From IMG/VR virus record IMGVR_UViG_3300017992_000022: a stretch of DNA of 64,000 nucleotides; one strand, written 5' to 3'. The position numbers and the translations under genes are program-made. The notes beneath the pieces were generated by a model that saw nothing but the letters and a program-made list of their open reading frames with translations, searched no databases and was not told the DNA's origin. The DNA comes from an uncultured virus (IMG/VR IMGVR_UViG_3300017992_000022) (lineage: Duplodnaviria; Heunggongvirae; Uroviricota; Caudoviricetes). Within the stretch, counting starts at the first letter, position 1, and every line of letters begins with the position of its first letter. Of this stretch, positions 3,201 through 46,963 are shown one piece after another.

Positions 3201-3787
3201 GTCGTGAGCTCGTCCAACGTAGCGGCCCGACCGAAAGCCAACCAGACAACGGTCCCGTCAGGAATGGTGTAGTTCGCGCCCAGCGCCCCCGTGACGGGAT
3301 CTACCTTTCTGAAGGTAACGATAGGGTTGGTAGAGAACCCAGACCCGACCTGGCTGACGCTGAGAGCGTCTTTGATTTCCCGGACTACGATCTTGTCTCC
3401 GGTCGTTGGGTCGATCAGATCGTTGTACTTCTCATCCAGTACACTGATCAAAGAATCACGGACACTTTGATCTTCGGGGGTGTAGAATGTGTCTCCGCAC
3501 CACACATCGGCAGAAAACGTGTACTCGTCGCCGTTTCCTCCCGCAGGAGTGAAAGTGACAAAGTCCGGGCGGGCGATCTGTTCCTCCATCCGCTCCTGGA
3601 TGTACTCGTCGTTCTTACCGAGGGCATAGAGCCCTCTGTTGACCGCCGAAGAGAGACCGTCCTCTCCAAACTCTACTGCGCGACTTCCGGCTGCCCCGGG
3701 GGAGTCTGCGGCAACAACTTGAGGCGAGCCCGGGTAGAAGAGATCTCCCGCGCTACTGTCACCAAGAGGATGTGGAAGGTTGGACAT
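230..3787 (-). CDS. Tail fibre/tailspike with C-terminal right-handed beta-helix (pectin-lyase-like) region
   Basis: 1185 aa. Many (I/V)xxNxF rungs in the C-terminal half, preceded by VTVGVGDCDF...LQEALD. Sits at the end of the baseplate module. Confidence 0.75.
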   Translation of the reverse strand: MSNLPHPLGDSSAGDLFYPGSPQVVAADSPGAAGSRAVEFGEDGLSSAVNRGLYALGKNDEYIQERMEEQIARPDFVTFTPAGGNGDEYTFSADVWCGDTFYTPEDQSVRDSLISVLDEKYNDLIDPTTGDKIVVREIKDALSVSQVGSGFSTNPIVTFRKVDPVTGALGANYTIPDGTVVWLAFGRAATLDELTTDTNVRDSWFRGFCRSVGEIHAGSFLKDGSRKATGNFDLDNNLLDVVERVRGASGVALTLEATGASPAHLNLLSSNEVQFRDTHLGGYLSLNDGDSALGGDHTSVLTSLNSKTAVLNGAVGMGLLNNASITFTDATGEISWAEMYYISPNGDRIVVAADSLNATDSQQSWLAINTGTGLIEEVASASLTMAHIPLYYYYWIGASFVQKYDVRRLHDGRTNGMVVTVGVGDCDFANNRLQEALDFITLIRSVGLTPTTAPPRIRIIGAVDATAAQLVIRGSCVIEGDDQTTSQIFTTDDETVSAIDCGLNQVVFKNLTMVAASMSGADNQVSCFYRPGSSSRFENIFFAQAGTDSYKVVFLADSTAVGYIHIRNCGTLSGHNVGGLLDSLTTGKWTFTHIEKCVIDANGLGGTRPDGLITHVGDSLWIDDCYFIGDANVTNAVRVGHNSHLHGNVFILNTASDGVLPYRASGSGEFVLNFENNYFLTAGKGISFDEMSGANTTMKLVARGNTFNAVLVPFSLELSVSLHQNSWTRISKNHVYNCTSFLLTDNDIRGVYVEGNFAYYIEEYFALFPTGGVVSAVIRNNYIDSWDYTPNDTPCIHYQGTDTEDDFCLIENNVFIAGHTGSGYAIHAEAGQCRVEANLFSRSVEPDTWIYMEKLYGSCVVGNYFGSADEHGVYLHNSGSVSTDHHFVFSGNHFDGVSAAGFACLYIAGFGGVTVSSNSFGDGTRWLGRAIHIAESGSVLPYGVTVDGNVIRGSKGQGSTSATLYVQNFATDYEGLIISNNSFVECGDDPSADTASNIIYMGGSGVISGNSFVDSYGSSNDGGSAVQAIINCAVEHIVVSSNYIFQDLVDGKTTLAHYKAIVLNANCSCCNNFLKFHGDNGTAGPDQFYAIDMINADASIVMGNWIGGDSETADDASGYNSIIGTNADECVVMGNYCGRHAFAVQSGSGGAVIGNVMTSAATFIVGGGHLYETASDNDPLNKNNV

Positions 3788-3799
3788 CTGTCTCTCCTA

Positions 3800-4522
3800 T
3801 CAGAACCTAAGTTCCCACCGGATCTCGAGTGAGAAAGAAGTTGTTTTCGGGATCGCCTCGAAGGTGTTATAGGCCACCAACTGTTGTCTTCCGGCACCCA
3901 CATAGCTAGGTGGGTTACCGGCGTCATAGACGTTAGCGGCTTCTGGATCTTGGGTAGCTATGAACAGACCGACTTCTGAAAGGGGGACCACTGAGTAGGA
4001 GGGAACGTTCGCCTCGTTAACGTCGGTGGTATCGAACAGGTGGTCAAACCGAACTGTGCGGCTGCTGTTCAGAAACGTGACGGGTGTGATCACTGGAGCG
4101 AGCCACGTGTAAGGGTTTGCATCCAAGTTGATCTTCACGGGACGCTCAAGGTGCGTTACCGTGAGGTCGTCATCTGATTGGGCGTTACCCGTATTACCGG
4201 GAACCCCAGATGGGTCTGCTGGAGGGTAGTCAGTACTGAGCGGTGACGCGTACGCTGAAGGATGCGTTTGGCTATCCCCGCCGATACCCACTCCCATGAA
4301 TTTGATGAACTCTCTGTTGCCGGCGCTCTCAGCGTAGTGGTCGTCCAGAGCAGTATTCGGCGCCACTACACGAGCTAGATACTCTCGACCGAGATCTACC
4401 CAGATATTGTGAGAGTGTCGGCAATGACGAGGGACAATCTTCCCGCGTTCTCGCGCAGTGATTGTCACGTTAGCCGGGATCAAAAGCCCCTTTGGTTTTA
4501 GCGGGTAGTCTCGAAGTTTCAT
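3800..4522 (-). CDS. Baseplate/tail-fibre attachment protein
   Basis: HNIWVDLGREYLA, MGVGIGG, LSEVGLF and AYNTFEAIPKT..LEIRWELRF resemble tail-collar-type proteins; context agrees. Confidence 0.6.
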   Translation of the reverse strand: MKLRDYPLKPKGLLIPANVTITARERGKIVPRHCRHSHNIWVDLGREYLARVVAPNTALDDHYAESAGNREFIKFMGVGIGGDSQTHPSAYASPLSTDYPPADPSGVPGNTGNAQSDDDLTVTHLERPVKINLDANPYTWLAPVITPVTFLNSSRTVRFDHLFDTTDVNEANVPSYSVVPLSEVGLFIATQDPEAANVYDAGNPPSYVGAGRQQLVAYNTFEAIPKTTSFSLEIRWELRF

Positions 4523-30240: not shown

Positions 30241-30630
30241 TCACCCCTCCTCCGAACCCAACATGGAAGGAGTGATCGCGGGGAATCTATCCCCCGTCTC
30301 CCGTCTGTTCTCTTGGGCTCTGATACTAGCTGCCGCAGCCTTCTTGCGCACGCGGGTTGCGAAGTTGATGACGTGCGTCGTGTTGCTGTCAGCCAACCTC
30401 TGGACCGCAGAAGCCCGCTTACCCTTATCTTCTGCGTCCAACTCCCGCATCAGAGACAGCACTTCACGAAGCTGCGGTTCTGTGATGAGGTTTAGTCCCA
30501 CAAGAAGACGACCGTACCTCTCCTCCTCAGTGGACTGTGTGAGATCTTCCGTGGCCTCTTCCAGTTGCCTGCGGGAGATGAAGCCCATCTGAACAATGAG
30601 ATCTCCAAGCGTCAGACCAGACTTGGTCAT
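30241..30630 (-). CDS. Stand-alone MshEN-like (T2SSE_N) domain protein
   Basis: TLGDLIVQMGFISRRQLEEAT and RYGRLLVGLNLITEPQLREVL are degenerate matches to the tandem RLGxxLLxxGLIxxxxLxxxLxxQ motif. Confidence 0.65.
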   Translation of the reverse strand: MTKSGLTLGDLIVQMGFISRRQLEEATEDLTQSTEEERYGRLLVGLNLITEPQLREVLSLMRELDAEDKGKRASAVQRLADSNTTHVINFATRVRKKAAAASIRAQENRRETGDRFPAITPSMLGSEEG

Positions 30631-31228: not shown

Positions 31229-31458
31229 TACCCCTCCAGAAACTGGCTGATACTGTCAGCCAACAGCTTCTTCGAGTCAGTGACGCCTTGGTTGGCCACT
31301 TTGCCGGCGCCTGTTCTGTTCTTGATCACAGACTTCATGAACTTCACATCTGCGTCCAATTGCTCTTTCTTCTTGTTGCCGTACTTCTTCACGGCGTCCT
31401 CGAGAGCGTCGAGACGCTTGTCCCGCTCTGTCTTTCTCAGTTCTTCGGTAGCCATCAC
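31228..31458 (-). CDS. Small hypothetical protein
   Basis: 76 aa; coupled to the sigma factor gene. Confidence 0.6.
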   Translation of the reverse strand: MMATEELRKTERDKRLDALEDAVKKYGNKKKEQLDADVKFMKSVIKNRTGAGKVANQGVTDSKKLLADSISQFLEG

Positions 31459-32258
31459 GACCCCTCATAAGATTTCCACTTGGCCGCAATGGAACCTTTC
31501 AAACGCGATATCTTTGGCGCACTCATTTTGAGCCTTTTCGCTATGTCTCCTGTACCAAGACGAGGCTTGCCGGCTACACCATGAACGTACTCAAACACCG
31601 CTCGTTCGTCATTAGAGAGATCGTACGGCAGCAAATTCATGATCTCTTTCGTGCGCGACATCTGAAAAGACGTGGGGTCTTTGTCTCCGAACTGCCCCAC
31701 CGGATGGGACCTACGCAGTTCAGTACGTAACATCTCTACCTGGTTTTTGGGTATTTTCGCGTAGTCCGAGATCTCCAACACAGTCGGAGACCGCCCAAGA
31801 CGTTGACGAAGAGTATCTTCCGCCGTTTGGAACTGAGTGATGTGCTTCAGTCGCTTCTCCCCAATCCTGGCAGGGTTCTGGTAGGTGTTGATGAACCTGT
31901 TGGCCTTCATCAACCTGTAGTTGATCCAGGTCGACATCTTACCCTTGTTCGGATCGAACGTGTCCAGAGCGCCAAGCAGCTGATTACGGAACTCGGACTG
32001 GATAGCACTTGGAGGAATGTCCCGTACCCGATGCTGAAAGATCTTCATTCGGTTGTTGACCAATGGCTGCAGAGACTGAACTAACGGTCTGAGATGCTCT
32101 GGCCTCTTACCGCTCGTCTGCCACTGCTGCCACATCTGGAGCTCTTTTCGCGCACGATCGGTGAGGGGTTTGCGCTTTCCCTGCGCAAACCCGTCCTTTT
32201 CAAGGTCTTGCTCCCCATAGCCGAGGGACTCGAGCGCGTCATCGAGCGGGTTCGACAT
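31455..32258 (-). CDS. Phage sigma70-family RNA polymerase sigma factor (group 3-like)
   Basis: Region 2 ALDTFDPNKGKMSTW; region 3 LRQRLGRSPTVLEIS; region 4 LSNDERAVF...DIAKRLKMSAPKISRLK. Confidence 0.85.
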   Translation of the reverse strand: MSNPLDDALESLGYGEQDLEKDGFAQGKRKPLTDRARKELQMWQQWQTSGKRPEHLRPLVQSLQPLVNNRMKIFQHRVRDIPPSAIQSEFRNQLLGALDTFDPNKGKMSTWINYRLMKANRFINTYQNPARIGEKRLKHITQFQTAEDTLRQRLGRSPTVLEISDYAKIPKNQVEMLRTELRRSHPVGQFGDKDPTSFQMSRTKEIMNLLPYDLSNDERAVFEYVHGVAGKPRLGTGDIAKRLKMSAPKISRLKGSIAAKWKSYEGS

Positions 32259-38223: not shown

Positions 38224-38466
38224 CTAGATCTGAATGTTGACCTTGATCAGATCGTCCTTGATCTGACGACTGGTCTCCTCCACTTTGAAGCCTTCCCCCG
38301 TAAGAACATCGTAGAGCTTCGCGCGAACCAGCTTCAAGTATGGGTCTTCCACAGCCAGGGAGTCACGTACAATCACCGTTCGCATTGTCCCGTCCGCGAC
38401 GGGGATGCGAAAGAAGACCTCGCTTCTGACCGCGTACTTGTTCGTTCCTGCTTTAGGCTTAGGCAT
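38224..38466 (-). CDS. Hypothetical protein
   Basis: 80 aa; TAATG coupling. Confidence 0.6.
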   Translation of the reverse strand: MPKPKAGTNKYAVRSEVFFRIPVADGTMRTVIVRDSLAVEDPYLKLVRAKLYDVLTGEGFKVEETSRQIKDDLIKVNIQI

Positions 38467-41400
38467 TAGCCGCTCTTCTTGCCTTTCTTTGGTATTTTCT
38501 CGTCCCTCGATATCGCACCGAGATACTCAACAACCTGGTTTAGCTTTACGGTCTGTGTCTTGAGCTCAGTGACCATCTTCCCTTCCTTGGGATCGATACC
38601 CGCCGCAGAAAGATCCTGTGGATCTAAACCGGCTCTCTTAGCCACCTGGACGCTATAGCTCTTCACTGCCCCGCTAACAGCTCTCTTGACGCCGATGCGG
38701 GTTTGCTCGCCCACTGTCAACCCCCCACGCATTTCACCGACCATACGGTCGATATCCTCTTCCTCATAACCTCTAGCCTTGAGCCGCTCTCGTATCATAC
38801 TTGTATCGGTGCCACGGATAAGACCCGTGGTCACTTTCCGTAACTCTTTTTGACTTAAACCCGAGATGCCGAGCTGAGCCAGCCTTCGATGGATTCCTGT
38901 TTTAGCTTTGCGGGATATCTTCTCACCCTCCTCGATGTCCCTACTGATACCAAAATCCTGAGCCTCCTCCTTCACCCTAGAAGCCCCCGACAAAACCAAA
39001 CCGATGTCAGTTCCGGACAAACCCTTCTCCTGAAGAATAGCGCTCATTCGACGAGCCTTCTCAGGATCGTCGGCTGCTGCTTGAGCAAGACGTGACAACC
39101 TATTCAGCTGAGCACTTGGAGTCAGTCCCCCCGTACTCATGGCCTCCGTGAACGCTTGTGTCAAACTAGTGTCTCCGCCACCAGCAGTGCGGATTAGATC
39201 TATGCCTTCTCCCAGCGTCTTTCTAAAACGTACCTTTCTTCTACGAAGGGTATCGTCGACGGCTTGGCGGTCCTTCATCCATGCACTAGCGCCCAGCTTA
39301 CCCATCAAGTCGGCTATGACCTCAGCCTGGGGGTTATTTGGATCTTGCATGCGGATAGCCACGTCACGCATCCTCTCTGAAGTGCTTCCATCCCTACTCA
39401 CTTCACGCAGTAGACCTCTTGCTTGATCTTCGAGCCGCTTCGCCTTATCAGGATCTCCCTTCCCGGTAGTCTTCATGTCCTGGCGTATTGCCCGCGCACG
39501 AGCGAAGAGGAGCATAGCCCTCTTACCCCGAGAGTCTTTCTTCAACTCCTCAATACCTCGTTCAGGAACCTCTTCTCCACCCAGCATGATGTCCCGAGCG
39601 CTCAGCAACTTTCCGGCTAGCTCTTCTGTGGCGCCCTCCTCGTATTTTTCGATCGCCTCCCTTCGAGCCTGCCCTCCAGAAGGCAATCCTTCCAAACCAG
39701 TGAAGCCAGTAAATTCACCCCGAGCCTTCCCTTGCATCGCCATGAGACGAGCAGTGGCTTTCCTACCACTAAGACCCGCGAACAGTTGTTGGGCCTGCCC
39801 TCCCGCACGACCTTGTTGGATCCTCTGAATGACTTGAGTCGCGTACTGCTCTTGTTCTTCTTGCCCGAGAGCCCCCATCCCCATCCGTCCTCGGAGATTC
39901 AAAACTTCTGCTCCGCGCAAATACTTCTGCACCTGCTGCGCTCCCGCTCCTCCCAGAGCTTCCCTCATCTGCTCAGTCCCACCGAATCCAAGAGCCCTAG
40001 CTTCCCCCACTCCGACCATCCCGCGCGAAGCTCTTCCAAGAGCTTCCCTCTCCCGAATATCCGCCAAACTAAATTGGCGACCGCGCCCAAAAATACGCTG
40101 CCCAGCCCAACCAGCAGCCCCACCAACCGCGGCGCCCACAGCTCCGAACAACCCCATGCCGATAGTTGCCCCGCGAGAAGCCCAACTTCTGCTACCCGAC
40201 ACCGGTCGGAATCCGAGCCGCATCATCTGAGCAGAACCCGCTTGCCCCACGTACCCACCCTTAATTTGACCGAGCTCCCGGTCCATGATGTCTCTCGGAC
40301 CAAACCCAGCAGACAAGTAGTCTCTGTTCCCGGTCTCCGCTGACCGGACCATCGCCCTGACGGCCTCCGCAGAAATGCCCCTCTCGCGTCCCCCCGTGCC
40401 CAGCAATCGGTCGGAGAAGCGCTGCCAAGTTCTTCCCACCTGGTAAGAGAAATCAGCTCCTGCCTCACGTAGAGGGCCGTCAATGTTCTGTCTCCACCAC
40501 TGCCCTATCCGCCGCTTGAAACCCTCGTAGGTGTTCGCCATCTGCTCTTCGCGTTGCCTCCCCTGAGCATCGATGGAGGCCTCAGAACGAGCAGCCTGAA
40601 TCTGCATCATTCGGGGCATTTCGCGGGCCAGCTTGGCCACGATGTCAGCCTGTCGGCGATTGCCACCCATAAAACGTTGAATGATTCTACGGGTTACTAG
40701 GCGGTCTCTAGCTCCCCCTCCCCACAACCGGCTCCCTGTCAGACTCCGGACGATGCCCAAAGCTGCCTGCGGACCCTGAGCCGCCAGCTTTCCCCGGAGC
40801 TCCCCCTCGTTTCCTACGAACTGATAAGCCCGTCTTCCCGAGACGTTACGCCGAGCAGAACGGCCTATCTCGCCGACACTCATTCCGCCAGCCATAAACC
40901 GTTGTAGTTTGGCGGGATCTAGGCCGGTACCTTCGCGGTCCATCATCGAGGCTAAAGCCCACCGCCCAACCCTCGAGCGAGCGAACCGCGCGGTAGCCCC
41001 AGCTAGCATTGTCCCGAGGTTTTGAGCTCCCTCAGCACCAGTACCGAACCCGGCCTCTCCTAACGTCCTCGAGCTCACCACGTTGCCAAACAACGCCGCC
41101 CCACCCATCATCTGCGCTCGGGCCATCATCTGAGAACCCTGCTGCCCCGTCCCACCAATCCTCCTGGCCATCTGGGCTCCCATGCCCATCACAGCTTGGG
41201 ATTGCTGTGCACTCATCCCCGTATTGGCCTGCACTTGCCTTACTTGTGCGGCGTGCCTCGTGATGTCCTGCGGTGTCCAAAAACCTTGCTGGCGAGCCTG
41301 CTGGAAGAACGGCAATGCCTCAGAGAGCGTCGTGTTGAACGTCTTGGCGATCTCCGTCAGCGTGTCCTTCATCTTCGTGAACCGCTGACGAAACTCCCGC

Positions 41401-42107
41401 GCGTCCTGTACGCCCCGAAAGACTCCCATCTGAGCTCCCCGACCCATGATCCCTAGGAGCTCACTCGGAGTCGACATCATGTCCTTGCTGCCCATCGTCT
41501 GAAGCATTTGGCCGACTTGCCGTTGCTCCACTTGTCCGAAACCGTACCCCGTTCGCGATTCGGGATTCGTAAAGCGGAAAGTGTTCTGCAACATCGATCC
41601 AACTTGATTTTGGAACTGTGCCCCCTGTGCCATCTGACCAACCGCGTAGCTCCCCGCATGATAGAGACCTAACGCAGGAAGAGCACCTAAAGCCCCCATG
41701 CCGATCCCGCGGGCGATGCCGCCAAGACCGCCTCTGGCTACCATGCCCAGATTGGACCCAATACCTGCCCCCGATCGCCAACCTACACCACGCGCAAACC
41801 CGCCCATCGCACCGGAAAAGGGGTCTAACATCCTGCCGACAGTGCCGCCCATCATCATCCCCGCACCGGCTACGATCGGCGCACCATAACTCGCTGCAGC
41901 ATTCATCATCCCCGGGGCAGCTGCTACACCTTGATTAAACTCCTGCGCCCCAGGAGACATCATCGGGCCATAGGGGTTGGCGTAAGTAGGAGCCACTCCC
42001 ATCGCTTGACCCATCGGAGAAATCTGTTGGGCGTACGTGGCTGTGTTACCGAACATGGCCTGCTGGCCAGCGATCATTTGGTTGATCTGGTGACTGGTAA
42101 CGGGCAT
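38466..42107 (-). CDS. Probable tail tape measure protein
   Basis: 1213 aa, rich in G/A/M/Q/R, helical with glycine-zipper segments; first gene of the tail block; AGGAG RBS. Confidence 0.65.
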   Translation of the reverse strand: MPVTSHQINQMIAGQQAMFGNTATYAQQISPMGQAMGVAPTYANPYGPMMSPGAQEFNQGVAAAPGMMNAAASYGAPIVAGAGMMMGGTVGRMLDPFSGAMGGFARGVGWRSGAGIGSNLGMVARGGLGGIARGIGMGALGALPALGLYHAGSYAVGQMAQGAQFQNQVGSMLQNTFRFTNPESRTGYGFGQVEQRQVGQMLQTMGSKDMMSTPSELLGIMGRGAQMGVFRGVQDAREFRQRFTKMKDTLTEIAKTFNTTLSEALPFFQQARQQGFWTPQDITRHAAQVRQVQANTGMSAQQSQAVMGMGAQMARRIGGTGQQGSQMMARAQMMGGAALFGNVVSSRTLGEAGFGTGAEGAQNLGTMLAGATARFARSRVGRWALASMMDREGTGLDPAKLQRFMAGGMSVGEIGRSARRNVSGRRAYQFVGNEGELRGKLAAQGPQAALGIVRSLTGSRLWGGGARDRLVTRRIIQRFMGGNRRQADIVAKLAREMPRMMQIQAARSEASIDAQGRQREEQMANTYEGFKRRIGQWWRQNIDGPLREAGADFSYQVGRTWQRFSDRLLGTGGRERGISAEAVRAMVRSAETGNRDYLSAGFGPRDIMDRELGQIKGGYVGQAGSAQMMRLGFRPVSGSRSWASRGATIGMGLFGAVGAAVGGAAGWAGQRIFGRGRQFSLADIREREALGRASRGMVGVGEARALGFGGTEQMREALGGAGAQQVQKYLRGAEVLNLRGRMGMGALGQEEQEQYATQVIQRIQQGRAGGQAQQLFAGLSGRKATARLMAMQGKARGEFTGFTGLEGLPSGGQARREAIEKYEEGATEELAGKLLSARDIMLGGEEVPERGIEELKKDSRGKRAMLLFARARAIRQDMKTTGKGDPDKAKRLEDQARGLLREVSRDGSTSERMRDVAIRMQDPNNPQAEVIADLMGKLGASAWMKDRQAVDDTLRRRKVRFRKTLGEGIDLIRTAGGGDTSLTQAFTEAMSTGGLTPSAQLNRLSRLAQAAADDPEKARRMSAILQEKGLSGTDIGLVLSGASRVKEEAQDFGISRDIEEGEKISRKAKTGIHRRLAQLGISGLSQKELRKVTTGLIRGTDTSMIRERLKARGYEEEDIDRMVGEMRGGLTVGEQTRIGVKRAVSGAVKSYSVQVAKRAGLDPQDLSAAGIDPKEGKMVTELKTQTVKLNQVVEYLGAISRDEKIPKKGKKSG

Positions 42108-42208: not shown

Positions 42209-42595
42209 ATGATCGTTGAGGGTCTCGTCCTTCTCGGGATCGCGGCCTCCTTGCTGGCGCCGGCGGCGAAATCCGTCGCCGTCGGAAAGGCGGCGGAGAA
42301 GGTCGTGGACAGGATGGTGTCCACGACCAAGTTCCGCCTGGAGGACGGAACAGTCCTCCAGGTCGAACTCTGCGATCTCGGAACTGAGGAAATAGCGTTC
42401 CTCAGTCTCGGAGATCACGAAGTAGTCGTGACCAAGTCGGAGAAGGACTTTTCCGACTTGGTCATGCTGACTCAGCTGTACGCCCACCTTGGAGCGCCGG
42501 TCCCGCCCGAGGTGGGGGCGCAGCTGGCAAAGATCTGGCAGTCCCGCCTCAAGGAGATCTCTTGTTCGCCGTCCAGGCGAACAAAGAGACTCTGA
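42209..42595 (+). CDS. Hypothetical protein with hydrophobic N-terminus
   Basis: AAGGAGG RBS; flanked by a promoter motif and a terminator. Confidence 0.75.
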   Translation: MIVEGLVLLGIAASLLAPAAKSVAVGKAAEKVVDRMVSTTKFRLEDGTVLQVELCDLGTEEIAFLSLGDHEVVVTKSEKDFSDLVMLTQLYAHLGAPVPPEVGAQLAKIWQSRLKEISCSPSRRTKRL

Positions 42596-42603
42596 CGGCA
42601 GGG

Positions 42604-42631
42604 AGGGGGCGTGAAAAAACGCTCCCTTTTT
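42604..42631 (+). terminator. Intrinsic terminator
   Basis: AGGGGGCGT-gaaaaa-ACGCTCCCT stem followed by a T run, just after stop 42595. Confidence 0.7.
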
Positions 42632-42632
42632 A

Positions 42633-42640
42633 GCTATAAG
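42633..42640 (+). promoter_or_regulatory. Promoter-like motif variant GCTATAAG
   Basis: Directly after the terminator and 6 nt before the first stem of the candidate RNA. Confidence 0.5.
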
Positions 42641-42646
42641 GTCTAT

Positions 42647-42940
42647 GTTCAGCAATGGACGATCGCACGACGATCAACGAAGTCCCGCTGAGCCTGGGTG
42701 GTCAGGAGAATTCGGGCAACTGGATTCCAAGATCGACATCCCGAGTGTCGGGGTGTTCAGTACCGGCAGCCCCTGCATATCAGGGACGTAAGTATCCGAG
42801 TCAGGTGCACCCCAACATGACACTCAAATTTTTACCTAGGTTGCAAAAAGGGGGGACGTGAGCGCCGCCCGCCAGTGTTTTCTTAGCGGGTACCCTCGAC
42901 CGTACGTCAGCGTTGGGCAGCAGTGAGCCGGCGCAGCGTT
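42647..42940 (+). ncRNA. Candidate multi-domain structured ncRNA of unknown class
   Basis: Consecutive nested stems with G-U pairs and a GCAA tetraloop; the overlapping ORF has no RBS. Confidence 0.45.
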
Positions 42941-42954
42941 ATCGTACCACGAGA

Positions 42955-43215
42955 TCAATCGAAGCAGCACGAGCCAACAGATCTTTTGAGCTCTTCCAAT
43001 TCCAAGCGTTGCAGAGGAGGGCACTCGTGTTGCCACATGTCCTCGTAACACCGGCACGCTTCCTCATTGCACACCAATGCCCGCCAAGGGTCTCCGCCCA
43101 ACTTCCATTGTGCCTCACACACTACATCTGTGCAGAAAGCCTCATCCCAAGTTGGATCTACGTCCTGACCTCCGCATGAGGCCAAAACCAACAATGCCGC
43201 TACCAGTAACTTCAT
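42955..43215 (-). CDS. Cys-rich lipoprotein
   Basis: Signal peptide MKLLVAALLVLAS-C with lipobox LASC; eight further Cys. Confidence 0.65.
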   Translation of the reverse strand: MKLLVAALLVLASCGGQDVDPTWDEAFCTDVVCEAQWKLGGDPWRALVCNEEACRCYEDMWQHECPPLQRLELEELKRSVGSCCFD

Positions 43216-43310
43216 GGGGCGGTAGCATTACAGGATGACGGTCAGGAGATCAAGTAAAAGATCTCCTTACTCGATCGAGTGACCGAGCTAAAGAGAGGAA
43301 GAAGGCCTAA

Positions 43311-43484
43311 CTATGCTGCGAGACCATCCGCGTTTTGCGATCTAGTTTGATCTCTTTTACGAGAATCCTTATCCCCGTGCAGCAAAGCCTTCGTGCAAGA
43401 ACGGCACAGATGCTTGCTGGGGTCGCCGTGGAGATGAGCCAACCCAGGAACCGCGCGGCCACAGCAGTGTACACAACGTAACAT
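43311..43484 (-). CDS. Small Zn-finger protein
   Basis: Start reassigned to ATG 43484 (AAGGAGG RBS); CVHC..LCRSC. Confidence 0.6.
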   Translation of the reverse strand: MLRCVHCCGRAVPGLAHLHGDPSKHLCRSCTKALLHGDKDSRKRDQTRSQNADGLAA

Positions 43485-43670
43485 GACGGGCCTCCTTTTT
43501 ACGACCCGCATGTTCTGCAGGCCGTCAGAAGATCGACGTAGGCTTCGAGGAACGGAACACACCCCACGGGTCATCCCTGAATGTCACTCGAATAACGCTC
43601 GTCGATCTCATGGTTCTTCTGTCAGTGTGACCACTTGTTCAAAAATGTCAACAGTGTACGTGTCTCAGCT

Positions 43671-43726: not shown

Positions 43727-43939
43727 TCATGTCACGATCTTGTACCCCAAGTACTCCCGAAGGATTTGCTGTTCTACGGAAGATAAGGGCTCCATTCCTT
43801 GACCCATCATCCAGTTCTCGAATGCGCGAATCTCGGCCCCCAGACTGTCAGCTGCTTTAACAGGCTCTTTCTCCGCCAACCTTCGGAAACCTTCTTTGTC
43901 GAGACTCATCACAATCTCGATTGTCTCCTTGTTTGCCAT
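43727..43939 (-). CDS. Hypothetical protein
   Basis: 70 aa, AAGGAG RBS, own promoter motif and terminator. Confidence 0.75.
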   Translation of the reverse strand: MANKETIEIVMSLDKEGFRRLAEKEPVKAADSLGAEIRAFENWMMGQGMEPLSSVEQQILREYLGYKIVT

Positions 43940-46329: not shown

Positions 46330-46688
46330 TTGAAGACACCAACAGAGATGAGGCCCTCGTCGCTGCCGACGTTCTGATGGAATCCGGCGCCATGCCTCAC
46401 GCCTACCTCACAGCTTGGGTCCCCCTGGAGATGCTAGGCGTCGTCCAGGTCACCGCTGTCCAACATCATCGTACGGATTCACGTCCGACAAGGACCAGGA
46501 CAGGGACAGGGACATGGACAAGGACATGGACCAGGACCAGGACAGGGACAGGGACATGGACAAGGACAAGGACAAGGACAGGGACAGGGACATGGACATG
46601 GACAAGGACAAGGACAAGGACAGGGACAGGGACATGGACAAGGACAAGGACAAGGACAGGGACAAGGACAAGGACCTTCAGAGCCTAG
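46326..46688 (+). CDS. Protein with a (TR/TG/TW)n dipeptide-repeat tail
   Basis: GTGA coupling to the upstream stop; DEALVAADVLMESG N-terminus; reads through the hexamer repeat. Confidence 0.5.
   Translation: MIEDTNRDEALVAADVLMESGAMPHAYLTAWVPLEMLGVVQVTAVQHHRTDSRPTRTRTGTGTWTRTWTRTRTGTGTWTRTRTRTGTGTWTWTRTRTRTGTGTWTRTRTRTGTRTRTFRA
46487..46675. repeat. Tandem hexamer repeat, 31 units of GAC(AAG/AGG/ATG/CAG)
   Basis: Read directly from the sequence. Confidence 0.97.
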
Positions 46689-46963
46689 AGATCGGCCACG
46701 GACTTTGGATCGACGTGCCGCTGCCTGACGGCGCCATGGAACGTTGGGTGGGCTCTTTCGCAGGTTGTACGGCTACGGAGATCATCCTCCGCCCCGCCGC
46801 GTACATCGACGATACTGGCAGGCTTTACAAAGCGTGGGCCGGTGAGTGGGACGAACACACGAACGTGGAGCCCCTGCCATCTCACCAAGCCGTGAGGCTA
46901 CCGAGATGGGGAGCCCGGGTCATGGACTGGCCCTACCCAATCCCACGAAAGGCGATGAAGTAG
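46634..46963 (+). CDS. Conserved-looking phage protein (WVG...AAYIDDTGR...VEP...W..P pattern); start uncertain, inside the repeat
   Basis: Globular domain follows (DK/DR/DM)n; the only in-frame ATGs upstream of the domain lie in GACATG units. Confidence 0.6.
   Translation: MDKDKDKDRDKDKDLQSLEIGHGLWIDVPLPDGAMERWVGSFAGCTATEIILRPAAYIDDTGRLYKAWAGEWDEHTNVEPLPSHQAVRLPRWGARVMDWPYPIPRKAMK

What the first reader, a model, noticed from the sequence alone, without database searches (positions are those of the whole stretch)
42633..42940. Candidate ~300-nt structured phage ncRNA with its own promoter motif
Seen: a GCTATAAG motif follows directly on a terminator, and 6 nt later the sequence pairs almost continuously. 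Domain 1: GTTCAGC(42647)/GCTGAGC(42687) enclosing GGAC/GTCC and GATCG/CGATC. Domain 2: GGGTG/CATCC enclosing GAATTCGG-GCAA-CTGGATTC (GNRA loop). Domain 3: GAGTGTC-GGGGTG(42743)/CACCCC...GACACTC(42825) enclosing CCCTG/CAGGG. Further stems: GACGTG/TACGTC and CGTTGG/CCGGCG. The many G-U pairs favour a plus-strand RNA. This is the largest stretch without a credible gene in an otherwise packed genome. I see no tRNA, tmRNA, RNase P, SRP or hammerhead signature. Inference: a possibly undescribed RNA class (regulatory decoy, packaging RNA or ribozyme).
Basis: partly seen in the sequence, partly recalled or inferred. Interest (0 to 1): 0.75.

Follow-up and report, generated by a model that had tools for sequence, protein, structure and literature searches.

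The report
Family-wide structured RNA of large phages
This is very likely a real, so far unnamed small folded RNA gene that a family of large sediment phages has kept beside its tail genes; its likeliest job is to bind a host protein, but that job is not yet shown.

Summary
The RNA gene is very likely real but shorter than reported: window 42647-42833 (+), 182 nt plus a U-tract (z -3.4; the 308-nt stretch only -1.6). It lies in an uncultured ~150-190 kb phage family. A promoter (A-tract, ~16 nt, TATAAG), a 5' hairpin, a long irregular 3' helix and a U-tract recur near the tape-measure-like gene in 21 of 23 assessable loci. Six relatives are tied to the window by a covariance model (two held out, E ~1e-7), and 10 of 28 pairs change on both sides. 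The other 14 are tied only by synteny, architecture and a short motif; the near and distant models do not detect each other. The constant core is a bulged A beside an AG-containing loop. Ten of 11 distant members carry a palindromic bulge whose centre comes in four sequence types, which suggests homodimers; the window's own palindrome is weak. No Rfam match; 6S, SRP and Y RNA tests were not met. Best reading: a trans-acting, protein-binding decoy or scaffold RNA made from a phage-sigma promoter. The stems at 42860-42936 belong to a separate, probably minus-strand element. Expression is untested.

The parts
42209..42595 (+). 128-aa ORF upstream of the RNA, with its own GGTATAAG promoter (42175) and RBS. 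It is inserted between the tape-measure-like gene and the RNA in the near clade.
   Evidence: similar small ORFs at this place in L001, L002, L006, L007, L009, L010, L013, L015; no family hit
42605..42631 (+). Terminator-like hairpin plus T-run ending the 128-aa ORF; its loop holds the A-tract (42614-42619) of the RNA's promoter
   Evidence: Sequence; same overlap in L002, L006, L007, L009; function inferred
42614..42640 (+). Bipartite phage promoter: A-tract, spacer, GCTATAAG; probably read with the phage's own sigma factor
   Evidence: an ATAAG 5-8 nt before all 21 RNAs; sigma assignment is inference
42647..42693 (+). Present in every member but variable (12 to about 75 nt). Here it carries an AACGAA internal loop also seen in the family's second, tRNA-like RNA.
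   Evidence: similarity to the second class only suggestive
42696..42742 (+). In 7 short members this place holds a tiny hairpin, self-complementary in 6; long in window, L006, L010; absent in the 11 distant members.
   Evidence: no covariation data for the window's long form
42743..42825 (+). H3, the conserved module: basal stem, 3' bulge (42814-42818), six to seven pairs, 3x3 loop AGY/CAG (42759-61/42802-04), two covarying pairs, bulged A 42799, CGG/CCG, and a tip hairpin with a GUAA loop
   Evidence: A4: 89% of cells paired, 10 of 28 pairs changed on both sides, slid controls 28-43%; RNAalifold gives the same fold; held-out L002 and L010 found
42829..42833 (+). U-tract; H3 doubles as the intrinsic terminator
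   Evidence: T-run 0-4 nt after the basal stem in the relatives; termination inferred
42862..42936 (-). Separate four-way (cloverleaf-like) element, probably on the minus strand, downstream of the 86-aa ORF 43215..42955. It overlaps a minus-strand terminator-like site (42870-42845). Not part of the + RNA.
   Evidence: Alignable in window, L006, L007 only; 23 predicted pairs, 2 two-sided and 3 one-sided changes; z only -1.6, -1.1, +0.1
38466..42107 (-). 1213-aa tape-measure-like gene, divergent from the RNA; used as the synteny anchor. The name is inferred from length, composition and position; no family hit.
31455..32258 (-). Phage sigma factor, likely reader of the promoter
   Evidence: Pfam Sigma70_r3 E 4e-5, under the cut-off; NCBIfam SigBFG 9e-7 and FliA/WhiG 1e-5, under cut-offs; atlas 0.98 to viral Sigma70_r3 clusters; present in 5 of 5 family records

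Best explanation
A stand-alone small RNA gene of this phage family. SHOWN by comparison: a promoter-to-U-tract unit with a conserved, covarying 3' helix, no conserved ORF, and free variation of the 5' part and of the helix tip. INFERRED: it is transcribed in mid-infection from a promoter read by the phage's own sigma factor and terminates on its own 3' helix. It acts in trans by presenting a protein-binding site (bulged A between C-G pairs beside an AG-containing internal loop, on a 25-35 bp irregular helix). In most members two molecules pair through a short palindrome (the 3' bulge in distant members, a tiny second hairpin in short near members), which would give a two-fold decoy or scaffold that titrates a host nucleic-acid-binding protein. 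The target protein is not identified. The window's own copy may be monomeric.
For: The unit recurs in 21 of 23 assessable loci whose anchor proteins are 31-67% identical to the window's. Covariation in both subgroups: 10 of 28 and 9 of 21 pairs changed on both sides, at most 1 of 500 shuffles as high, slid controls far lower. The conserved letters sit in paired or internal-loop positions, while terminal loops and the 5' domain vary (65-216 nt parts), which fits shape recognition and not base-pairing to targets. An automatic register search gave the same core geometry in 18 of 21. The unit moves relative to neighbours: directly divergent from the anchor gene in most distant members, behind an inserted ORF in the near clade, 1.4 kb away in L001, 3 kb away in L026, which argues for trans action. 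Palindrome at a fixed place in 10 of 11 distant bulges against 2.1 expected, four different centres (AGCU, GGCC, GCGC, GUAC), rough p 0.002 counting four types; self-duplex energies -8.7 to -17.3 for those 10 and -16.7 to -29.9 kcal/mol for six near H2 segments. Promoter enrichment and conserved sigma gene.
Against: No expression data and no binding partner. The near model R1 does not detect the six distant members tried, and the distant model R3 does not detect the window or the near members, so the 21 may be two families sharing a site and a design. R3 also gave false hits at E 0.006-0.009. Only 5 sequences per seed alignment, and the structures were read from those sequences, which inflates the pair counts. 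Four short near members fold no better than shuffles (z -0.1 to -0.9). The window's bulge palindrome is only CAUG (-2.2 kcal/mol), its GAAUUC is buried (9.4 kcal/mol to expose), and L010 and L026 lack a perfect palindrome. The near H2 palindromes are partly what any hairpin with a GCGC loop would give.
Confidence: 0.45

Rival explanations
1. A cut-down 6S RNA: H3 is the upstream (-35-mimic) arm of 6S, kept without the template bubble. It would bind the host housekeeping-sigma holoenzyme, could not be released by pRNA synthesis, and would favour the phage sigma factor.
For: The Rfam 6S consensus arm and 44 host 6S arms have a similar layout: basal GGG/CCC, mismatch, short stem, internal loop, 6-7 bp, loop, 2-bp GC helix, A-rich loop, tip. 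The 6S word GGUG(U/A)GC occurs on the 5' strand of the core in 6 of 21 phage RNAs (L001, L003, L011, L020, L022, L024), not in the window. The family encodes a sigma factor.
Against: An arm-only covariance model from 27 host 6S RNAs found none of the phage RNAs (it is insensitive: held-out 6S scored 20, 12 and no hit). Profile scores averaged z 1.1 for the 21 phage helices, like the four SRP controls (0.4-2.7) and far below 9 held-out 6S arms (2.7-14). R1 and R3 do not match 6S genes (best R3 overlap E 3.8). No central bubble. In B. subtilis 6S-1 the bubble suffices and the arms add about tenfold affinity (PMC8876501, passages). The resemblance was noticed after the fact.
Confidence: 0.15
2. 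A cis device: the short transcript and its strong 3' helix insulate the rightward phage-sigma transcription from convergent leftward transcription (bidirectional stop, antisense or promoter interference at the tail operon border).
For: It sits where the transcription direction changes. A minus-strand terminator follows closely in L002, L006, L007, L009, and convergent genes abut it in distant members.
Against: A terminator needs no own promoter, conserved internal loop, bulged A or covarying palindrome. The unit persists after moving 1.4-3 kb (L001, L026) and is followed by a fresh promoter in L010, L013, L015.
Confidence: 0.12
3. A structural or packaging RNA that multimerises and joins a virion assembly step, as the phi29 prohead RNA does.
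For: Family-wide retention beside tail genes; conserved self-complementary segment. Prohead RNA oligomers and palindromic pairing as a dimer motif are described in PMC12990946 (passages).
Against: A terminase-like domain was found in 2 of 5 family records (1 over the cut-off), pointing to ordinary terminase packaging. No paired left and right loops.
Confidence: 0.08
4. A base-pairing small RNA or a new small ribozyme.
For: Own promoter and terminator and a size of 85-216 nt are typical of sRNAs; transcripts begin with G.
Against: No conserved single-stranded seed (loops vary freely). No Rfam ribozyme hit at E up to 10. No conserved pseudoknot seen, and the invariant core is only a few bases.
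Confidence: 0.1
5. Not an RNA gene: chance stems, or the 68-aa ORF 42655-42861.
For: The 308-nt stretch has z only -1.6.
Against: Held-out homologues at E ~1e-7, covariation, ORF not conserved.
Confidence: 0.03

Closest known systems
6S RNA (Rfam RF00013)
   Same: Long irregular helix with a 2-bp GC helix between loops; similar arm length; a shared 7-letter word in 6 of 21 members; plausible protein-decoy role.
   Different: No central bubble, no 5'/3' closing stem, ends in a terminator, 85-130 nt in most members; no statistical match in any direction.
Bacterial small SRP RNA (RF00169)
   Same: Long hairpin with a CAG-containing internal loop near a GNRA-capped tip (L010, L018, L026).
   Different: In host SRP RNAs the UCAGG or CCAGG strand lies 5' of the tetraloop and AGCAG 3' of it. 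Here CAGG is on the 3' strand, the tip tolerates 4-58 nt, and there is no Rfam or R1 match.
Homodimeric or oligomeric natural RNAs (OLE, ARRPOF, HYER1, ROOL, GOLLD, phi29 prohead RNA)
   Same: Predicted intermolecular pairing through a palindrome, as described for HYER1 and HYER5; a phage or tRNA-cluster link as for GOLLD and ROOL (PMC12990946, passages).
   Different: Much smaller, three or fewer hairpins, no sequence or model match; dimerisation here is predicted only.
Candidate structured RNAs from IMG/VR (Fremin et al., PMC10690425)
   Same: Same kind of object: covarying intergenic phage RNA.
   Different: No hit for four contig ids and two core 10-mers in the readable supplement files. 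The alignment, model and position archives could not be read, so overlap is not excluded.
Stable RNAs of unknown role in phage tRNA regions (T4 RNA C and D; recalled, not checked)
   Same: Phage-promoter-driven stable small RNA; tRNA or tRNA-like genes nearby in L002, L006, L015.
   Different: No comparison made; the window phage's tRNA cluster lies far away.

Membership tests
Any Rfam 15 family | Covariance-model score at gathering threshold | tested here: not met
   0 hits in the window; at E up to 10 nothing over 42647-42833, L010 (33), L015 (34); two chance hits in six distant stretches (68)
6S RNA | Central bubble between two long arms, 5' and 3' ends paired | tested here: not met
   Folds show two or three consecutive hairpins and a U-tract
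6S RNA | Sequence and structure of the upstream arm | tested here: inconclusive
   Arm model R2 no hit but insensitive; profile z 1.1 on average, like SRP controls; shared word in 6 of 21
6S RNA | Binds housekeeping-sigma holoenzyme and templates pRNA | not testable with these tools
   Needs biochemistry
SRP RNA | GNRA-capped helix 8 with CAGG (5') and AGCA (3') symmetric loop | tested here: not met
   Compared with four host SRP RNAs; strand order reversed, tip variable; R1 no match
Y RNA / Yrl | Ro60 (TROVE) gene in the same genome | tested here: not met
   0 of 5 family records, 0 of 3 complete ones; control rang in 2 of 14. A host Ro60 is not excluded.
tRNA / tmRNA | Cloverleaf with T-arm and acceptor end, or tag frame | tested here: not met
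   ARAGORN 0 in window; no T-arm motif of the second class in the window or nearest record
phi29-type prohead RNA | Complementary left and right loops on a three-way junction; terminase-free packaging | tested here: not met
   No such junction in the folds; terminase-like domain in 2 of 5 records. The definition is recalled.
CsrB/RsmZ sponges | Several GGA motifs in hairpin loops | tested here: not met
   Loops listed are GNRA, GACG, GCGC types; the base after the core AGG varies (A, U, G, C). The weak RsmZ hit (E 1.3) covers the upstream terminator only.
Small self-cleaving ribozymes | Conserved catalytic core; self-cleavage | tested here: inconclusive
   No Rfam hit; activity not testable
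Homodimeric RNAs | Exposed self-complementary segment kept by selection | tested here: met
   Met for 10 of 11 distant members and 6 short near members, weak for the window itself; actual dimer formation untested

The most novel reading that the evidence does not exclude
A core non-coding gene of a whole uncultured phage family: a bubble-less 6S-like RNA that homodimerises through a palindrome whose sequence changes while self-complementarity is kept, traps the host's housekeeping RNA polymerase holoenzyme without the pRNA escape route, and so hands transcription to the phage's own sigma factor. This would be host takeover by an RNA anti-sigma rather than a protein.
Probability: 0.12. Interest if true: 0.9.

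Novelty: new variant of a known kind. Interest (0 to 1): 0.66.

Why it matters
Few non-coding RNAs other than tRNA and tmRNA are known to be kept across a whole phage family. This one persists while the neighbouring structural protein falls to about 31-40% identity, so it likely does something the phage needs. It is small (85-110 nt in minimal members), can be made in vitro, and has built-in controls: four natural palindrome types predict homodimers and no cross-dimers. That makes both the dimer claim and the protein target directly testable without culturing the phage. The comparison also yields a phage promoter consensus and two more undescribed RNA elements in the same family.

Tried and rejected
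No whole genome is held for this window; the nearest virus record (149 kb, about 85% complete) holds one copy. No RNA holder listed among 9 runs; this says nothing on expression. Laying four DNA runs gave no variant letters but one 440-nt contig with a further relative of H3. GenBank phages: no match by blastn or by two proteins. An exact 20-mer scan of viral contigs gave 0. The core pattern in viral contigs gave 79 hits, none with promoter and U-tract. The promoter-plus-core pattern gave 13 hits, only the known L002 record real. The anchor protein found nothing in genome contigs. The core pattern there gave 81 stretches; 80 loci were listed and scored, the best three at 24-25 bits with broken stems, taken as products of the pattern bias. 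R1 found 0 of 121 genomes in the phylum of a Myxococcales record and 0 of 121 in that of a Desulfotignum record (only 37 candidates scored per genome, so weak). Host not established: a MshE-type c-di-GMP domain is a weak hint only, and the myxophage preprint 10.64898/2026.09.14.751636 (passages; supplements closed) names none of these contigs in its text. RNAalifold on the 11-sequence alignment A6 gave no structure because MAFFT misplaced the variable tips; A9 with 5 of the 11 was used instead. The automatic register search misplaced 3 of 21 (L002, L006, L021). The R3 hit in the nearest record at 3735-3806 lies inside an ORF without promoter and was rejected. G-U counts did not decide the strand. 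Whole-molecule cofold gains (-6 to -20 kcal/mol) had no control and were not used. The atlas gave nothing for the conserved 70-aa neighbour. Four look-ups in earlier findings returned nothing. Literature searches showed no description of this RNA in their listings; the library lacks most subscription journals. R-scape and CMfinder are not available here.

Full report
Setting. The window is part of an uncultured tailed phage: a baseplate-J-like protein, a sigma factor, a ligase-like protein and an exonuclease are recognisable. Relatives are 137-193 kb contigs, and one is complete with terminal repeats at 178 kb. Nothing similar is among GenBank phages. The stretch lies between a 128-aa ORF on + (42209-42595) and an 86-aa ORF on - (43215..42955). 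Rfam and ARAGORN find nothing.

Observation. The stems exist, but the 308 nt fold at z -1.6 on either strand. Cut at the first G after TATAAG (42647) and at the T-run (42829-33), the 182 nt give z -3.37. The remaining 42833-42940 gives +1.14 on +.

Relatives. The 1213-aa tape-measure-like protein has 100 listed homologues. Two alignments of them fetched 29 loci. L005 is the window itself, L012, L014, L016 and L019 repeat other contigs, L008 repeats the upstream region of L011, and L023 lacks the upstream DNA. That leaves 23 assessable loci including the window. In 21 of them an ATAAG, usually with an A-tract about 16 nt before it, is followed 5-8 nt later by a G that opens a 5' hairpin, then a long irregular 3' helix and a T-run. 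None was found in L028 and L029, the two most distant (30% identity).

How firm the links are. Near group: model R1, built from the 3' helix of window, L006, L007, L009 and L015, finds the held-out L002 and L010 at E 3e-7 and 5e-7 in 370 kb; the next hits are at 0.37 and 0.82, the latter being the L001 RNA. On that alignment 89% of cells pair and 10 of 28 pairs change on both sides; slid registers give 28-43%. RNAalifold returns the same fold. A contig in a DNA run shows one more relative. Distant group: model R3 from 5 of 11 members (9 of 21 pairs changed on both sides) ranks the held-out L004, L017, L026, L025, L021 and L027 at E 2e-5, 9e-4, 5e-3, 0.013, 0.038 and 0.8, each at the promoter-defined place, with one false hit at 0.009 among them; L013 scores 1.2. 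R1 does not detect the distant members tried and R3 does not detect the near ones. Their kinship therefore rests on position, promoter, layout and a short motif: a C-G pair, a bulged A, two variable pairs, a loop whose 3' side ends in AG(G), then a stem, recovered automatically in 18 of 21. L001, L011 and L013 look intermediate. Seeds of five sequences with structures read from them overstate the pair statistics.

Anatomy in the window. H1 42647-42693, H2 42696-42742, H3 42743-42825, U-tract 42829-42833. Only H3 is conserved. Its two pairs beside the bulged A read AC/GU in the window, GC/GC in L006, L007 and L015, GA/UC in L002, L009 and L010, and GG/CC in L001 and L011. The tip ranges from a GAAA tetraloop to 58 nt. 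H1 and H2 shrink to about 22 nt in total in L015. The window's 5' half aligns weakly with a second, tRNA-like RNA of the distant phages (3, 7 and 22 of 500 shuffles as high for three of six; 81-187 for the others), so it may be a remnant of a fusion; this is suggestive only. ORF 42655-42861 is not conserved.

Promoter. GGTATAAG is found 13 times against 1.4 expected in 167 kb, and several copies precede ribosome-binding sites. The sigma gene is in 5 of 5 records, with weak similarity to SigB/F/G and FliA/WhiG types. That it reads this promoter is inference.

Palindrome. In 10 of 11 distant members the 3' bulge is self-complementary about a centre at a fixed place, against 2.1 expected, with four centres (AGCU, GGCC, GCGC, GUAC); L026 is imperfect. 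Both central pairs change while symmetry holds, and such short palindromes cannot close a hairpin, so pairing between two molecules is the simplest reading. In six short near or intermediate members the palindrome is the tiny H2 instead (self-duplex -17 to -30 kcal/mol). L010 has none; the window has only CAUG in its bulge (-2.2). Palindromic pairing is a described RNA dimer motif (PMC12990946, passages).

Mechanism. Shown: a conserved promoter-to-terminator unit with a covarying helix that moves relative to its neighbours. Inferred: mid-infection transcription, action in trans, protein binding by the bulge and loop, dimer formation in most members. I put a decoy or scaffold for a host nucleic-acid-binding protein at 0.45. 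The 6S-arm reading is the most striking special case. Layout and one 7-letter word agree in 6 of 21, but an arm model from 27 host 6S RNAs and a profile test gave no support beyond generic hairpins. The central bubble that suffices for the 6S cycle in B. subtilis is missing (PMC8876501, passages). I give it 0.15. Cis insulation, packaging RNA, sRNA or ribozyme and artefact are lower.

Known families. Not met for Rfam at large, SRP, Y RNA, tRNA, tmRNA, CsrB type and prohead RNA; inconclusive for the 6S arm. No cellular homologue in 81 pattern hits or in 242 sampled genomes, a weak test. The published IMG/VR candidate set (PMC10690425; passages and four supplement files searched) gave no hit, but its alignment and position archives were unreadable, so prior listing as an anonymous candidate is not excluded. 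Eight literature searches showed no description in their listings.

42862-42936 aligns with L006 and L007 on the minus strand as a four-way fold with one-sided changes that keep G-U pairs on that strand, but z-scores are weak. It is a separate candidate.

Verdict. Very likely a real, apparently undescribed phage ncRNA (about 0.9 for the gene, expression unproven), family-wide if the two subgroups are one family, with a testable dimer signal and an unknown target. Interest 0.66.

Noticed in passing
L003 2747-2600, L018 ~3985-3840, L019 ~1470-1310, L020 3961-3815, L024 6404-6235, L025 1385-1230 (all minus strand of the locus): A second promoter-driven RNA class in six distant phages: closing stem, hairpin with an AACGA-type loop, a short palindrome (GGAUCC, GAGCUC, GAGAUCUC types), a T-arm-like hairpin with a UUGAA loop, then a terminator hairpin. 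No Rfam hit for the two tried; its palindrome differs from that of the first class in the same phage; pattern absent from the nearest record and the L002 record.
   Followed up: partly
window 42862-42936 (-); L006 6845-6925 (+); L007 448-525 (+): Cloverleaf-like element on the strand opposite to the RNA, at the end of a leftward transcript.
   Followed up: partly
window 43483-43530 and 43608-43665 (-): Conserved leader of the small Cys-rich ORF ending at 43311: a TTGACA-type promoter near 43650 and a hairpin that appears to cover the ribosome-binding site, seen in L002, L006, L007, L009, L015.
   Followed up: no
window 43217-43310; L002 ~5090-4990, L006 ~6710-6600, L009 ~6975-6860: Another non-coding stretch with a long hairpin (43239-43285); L002, L006 and L009 share similar text at the matching place, which may be a further minus-strand RNA.
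   Followed up: no
L006 7106-7036 (-): tRNA-like gene with its own TATAAG promoter directly after the RNA, not called by ARAGORN; tRNA-Met in L002 and a doubtful tRNA-Trp call in L015 nearby.
   Followed up: no
window 43727-43939 (-): 70-aa ORF with look-alikes upstream of the anchor gene in many family members; ancestral convergent neighbour of the RNA; no family hit.
   Followed up: partly
window 30241-30630 (-): Phage-encoded MshE-type c-di-GMP-binding domain, over the NCBIfam cut-off.
   Followed up: no
window 46415-46963 (+): ORF with a long Asp/Lys/Arg/Met dipeptide repeat.
   Followed up: no
window and G001 left arm: GATC-centred 8-mers such as TAGATCTA are strongly over-represented (28 vs 5 expected); a cluster of seven tRNA calls lies at G001 8.4-9.7 kb.
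   Followed up: no
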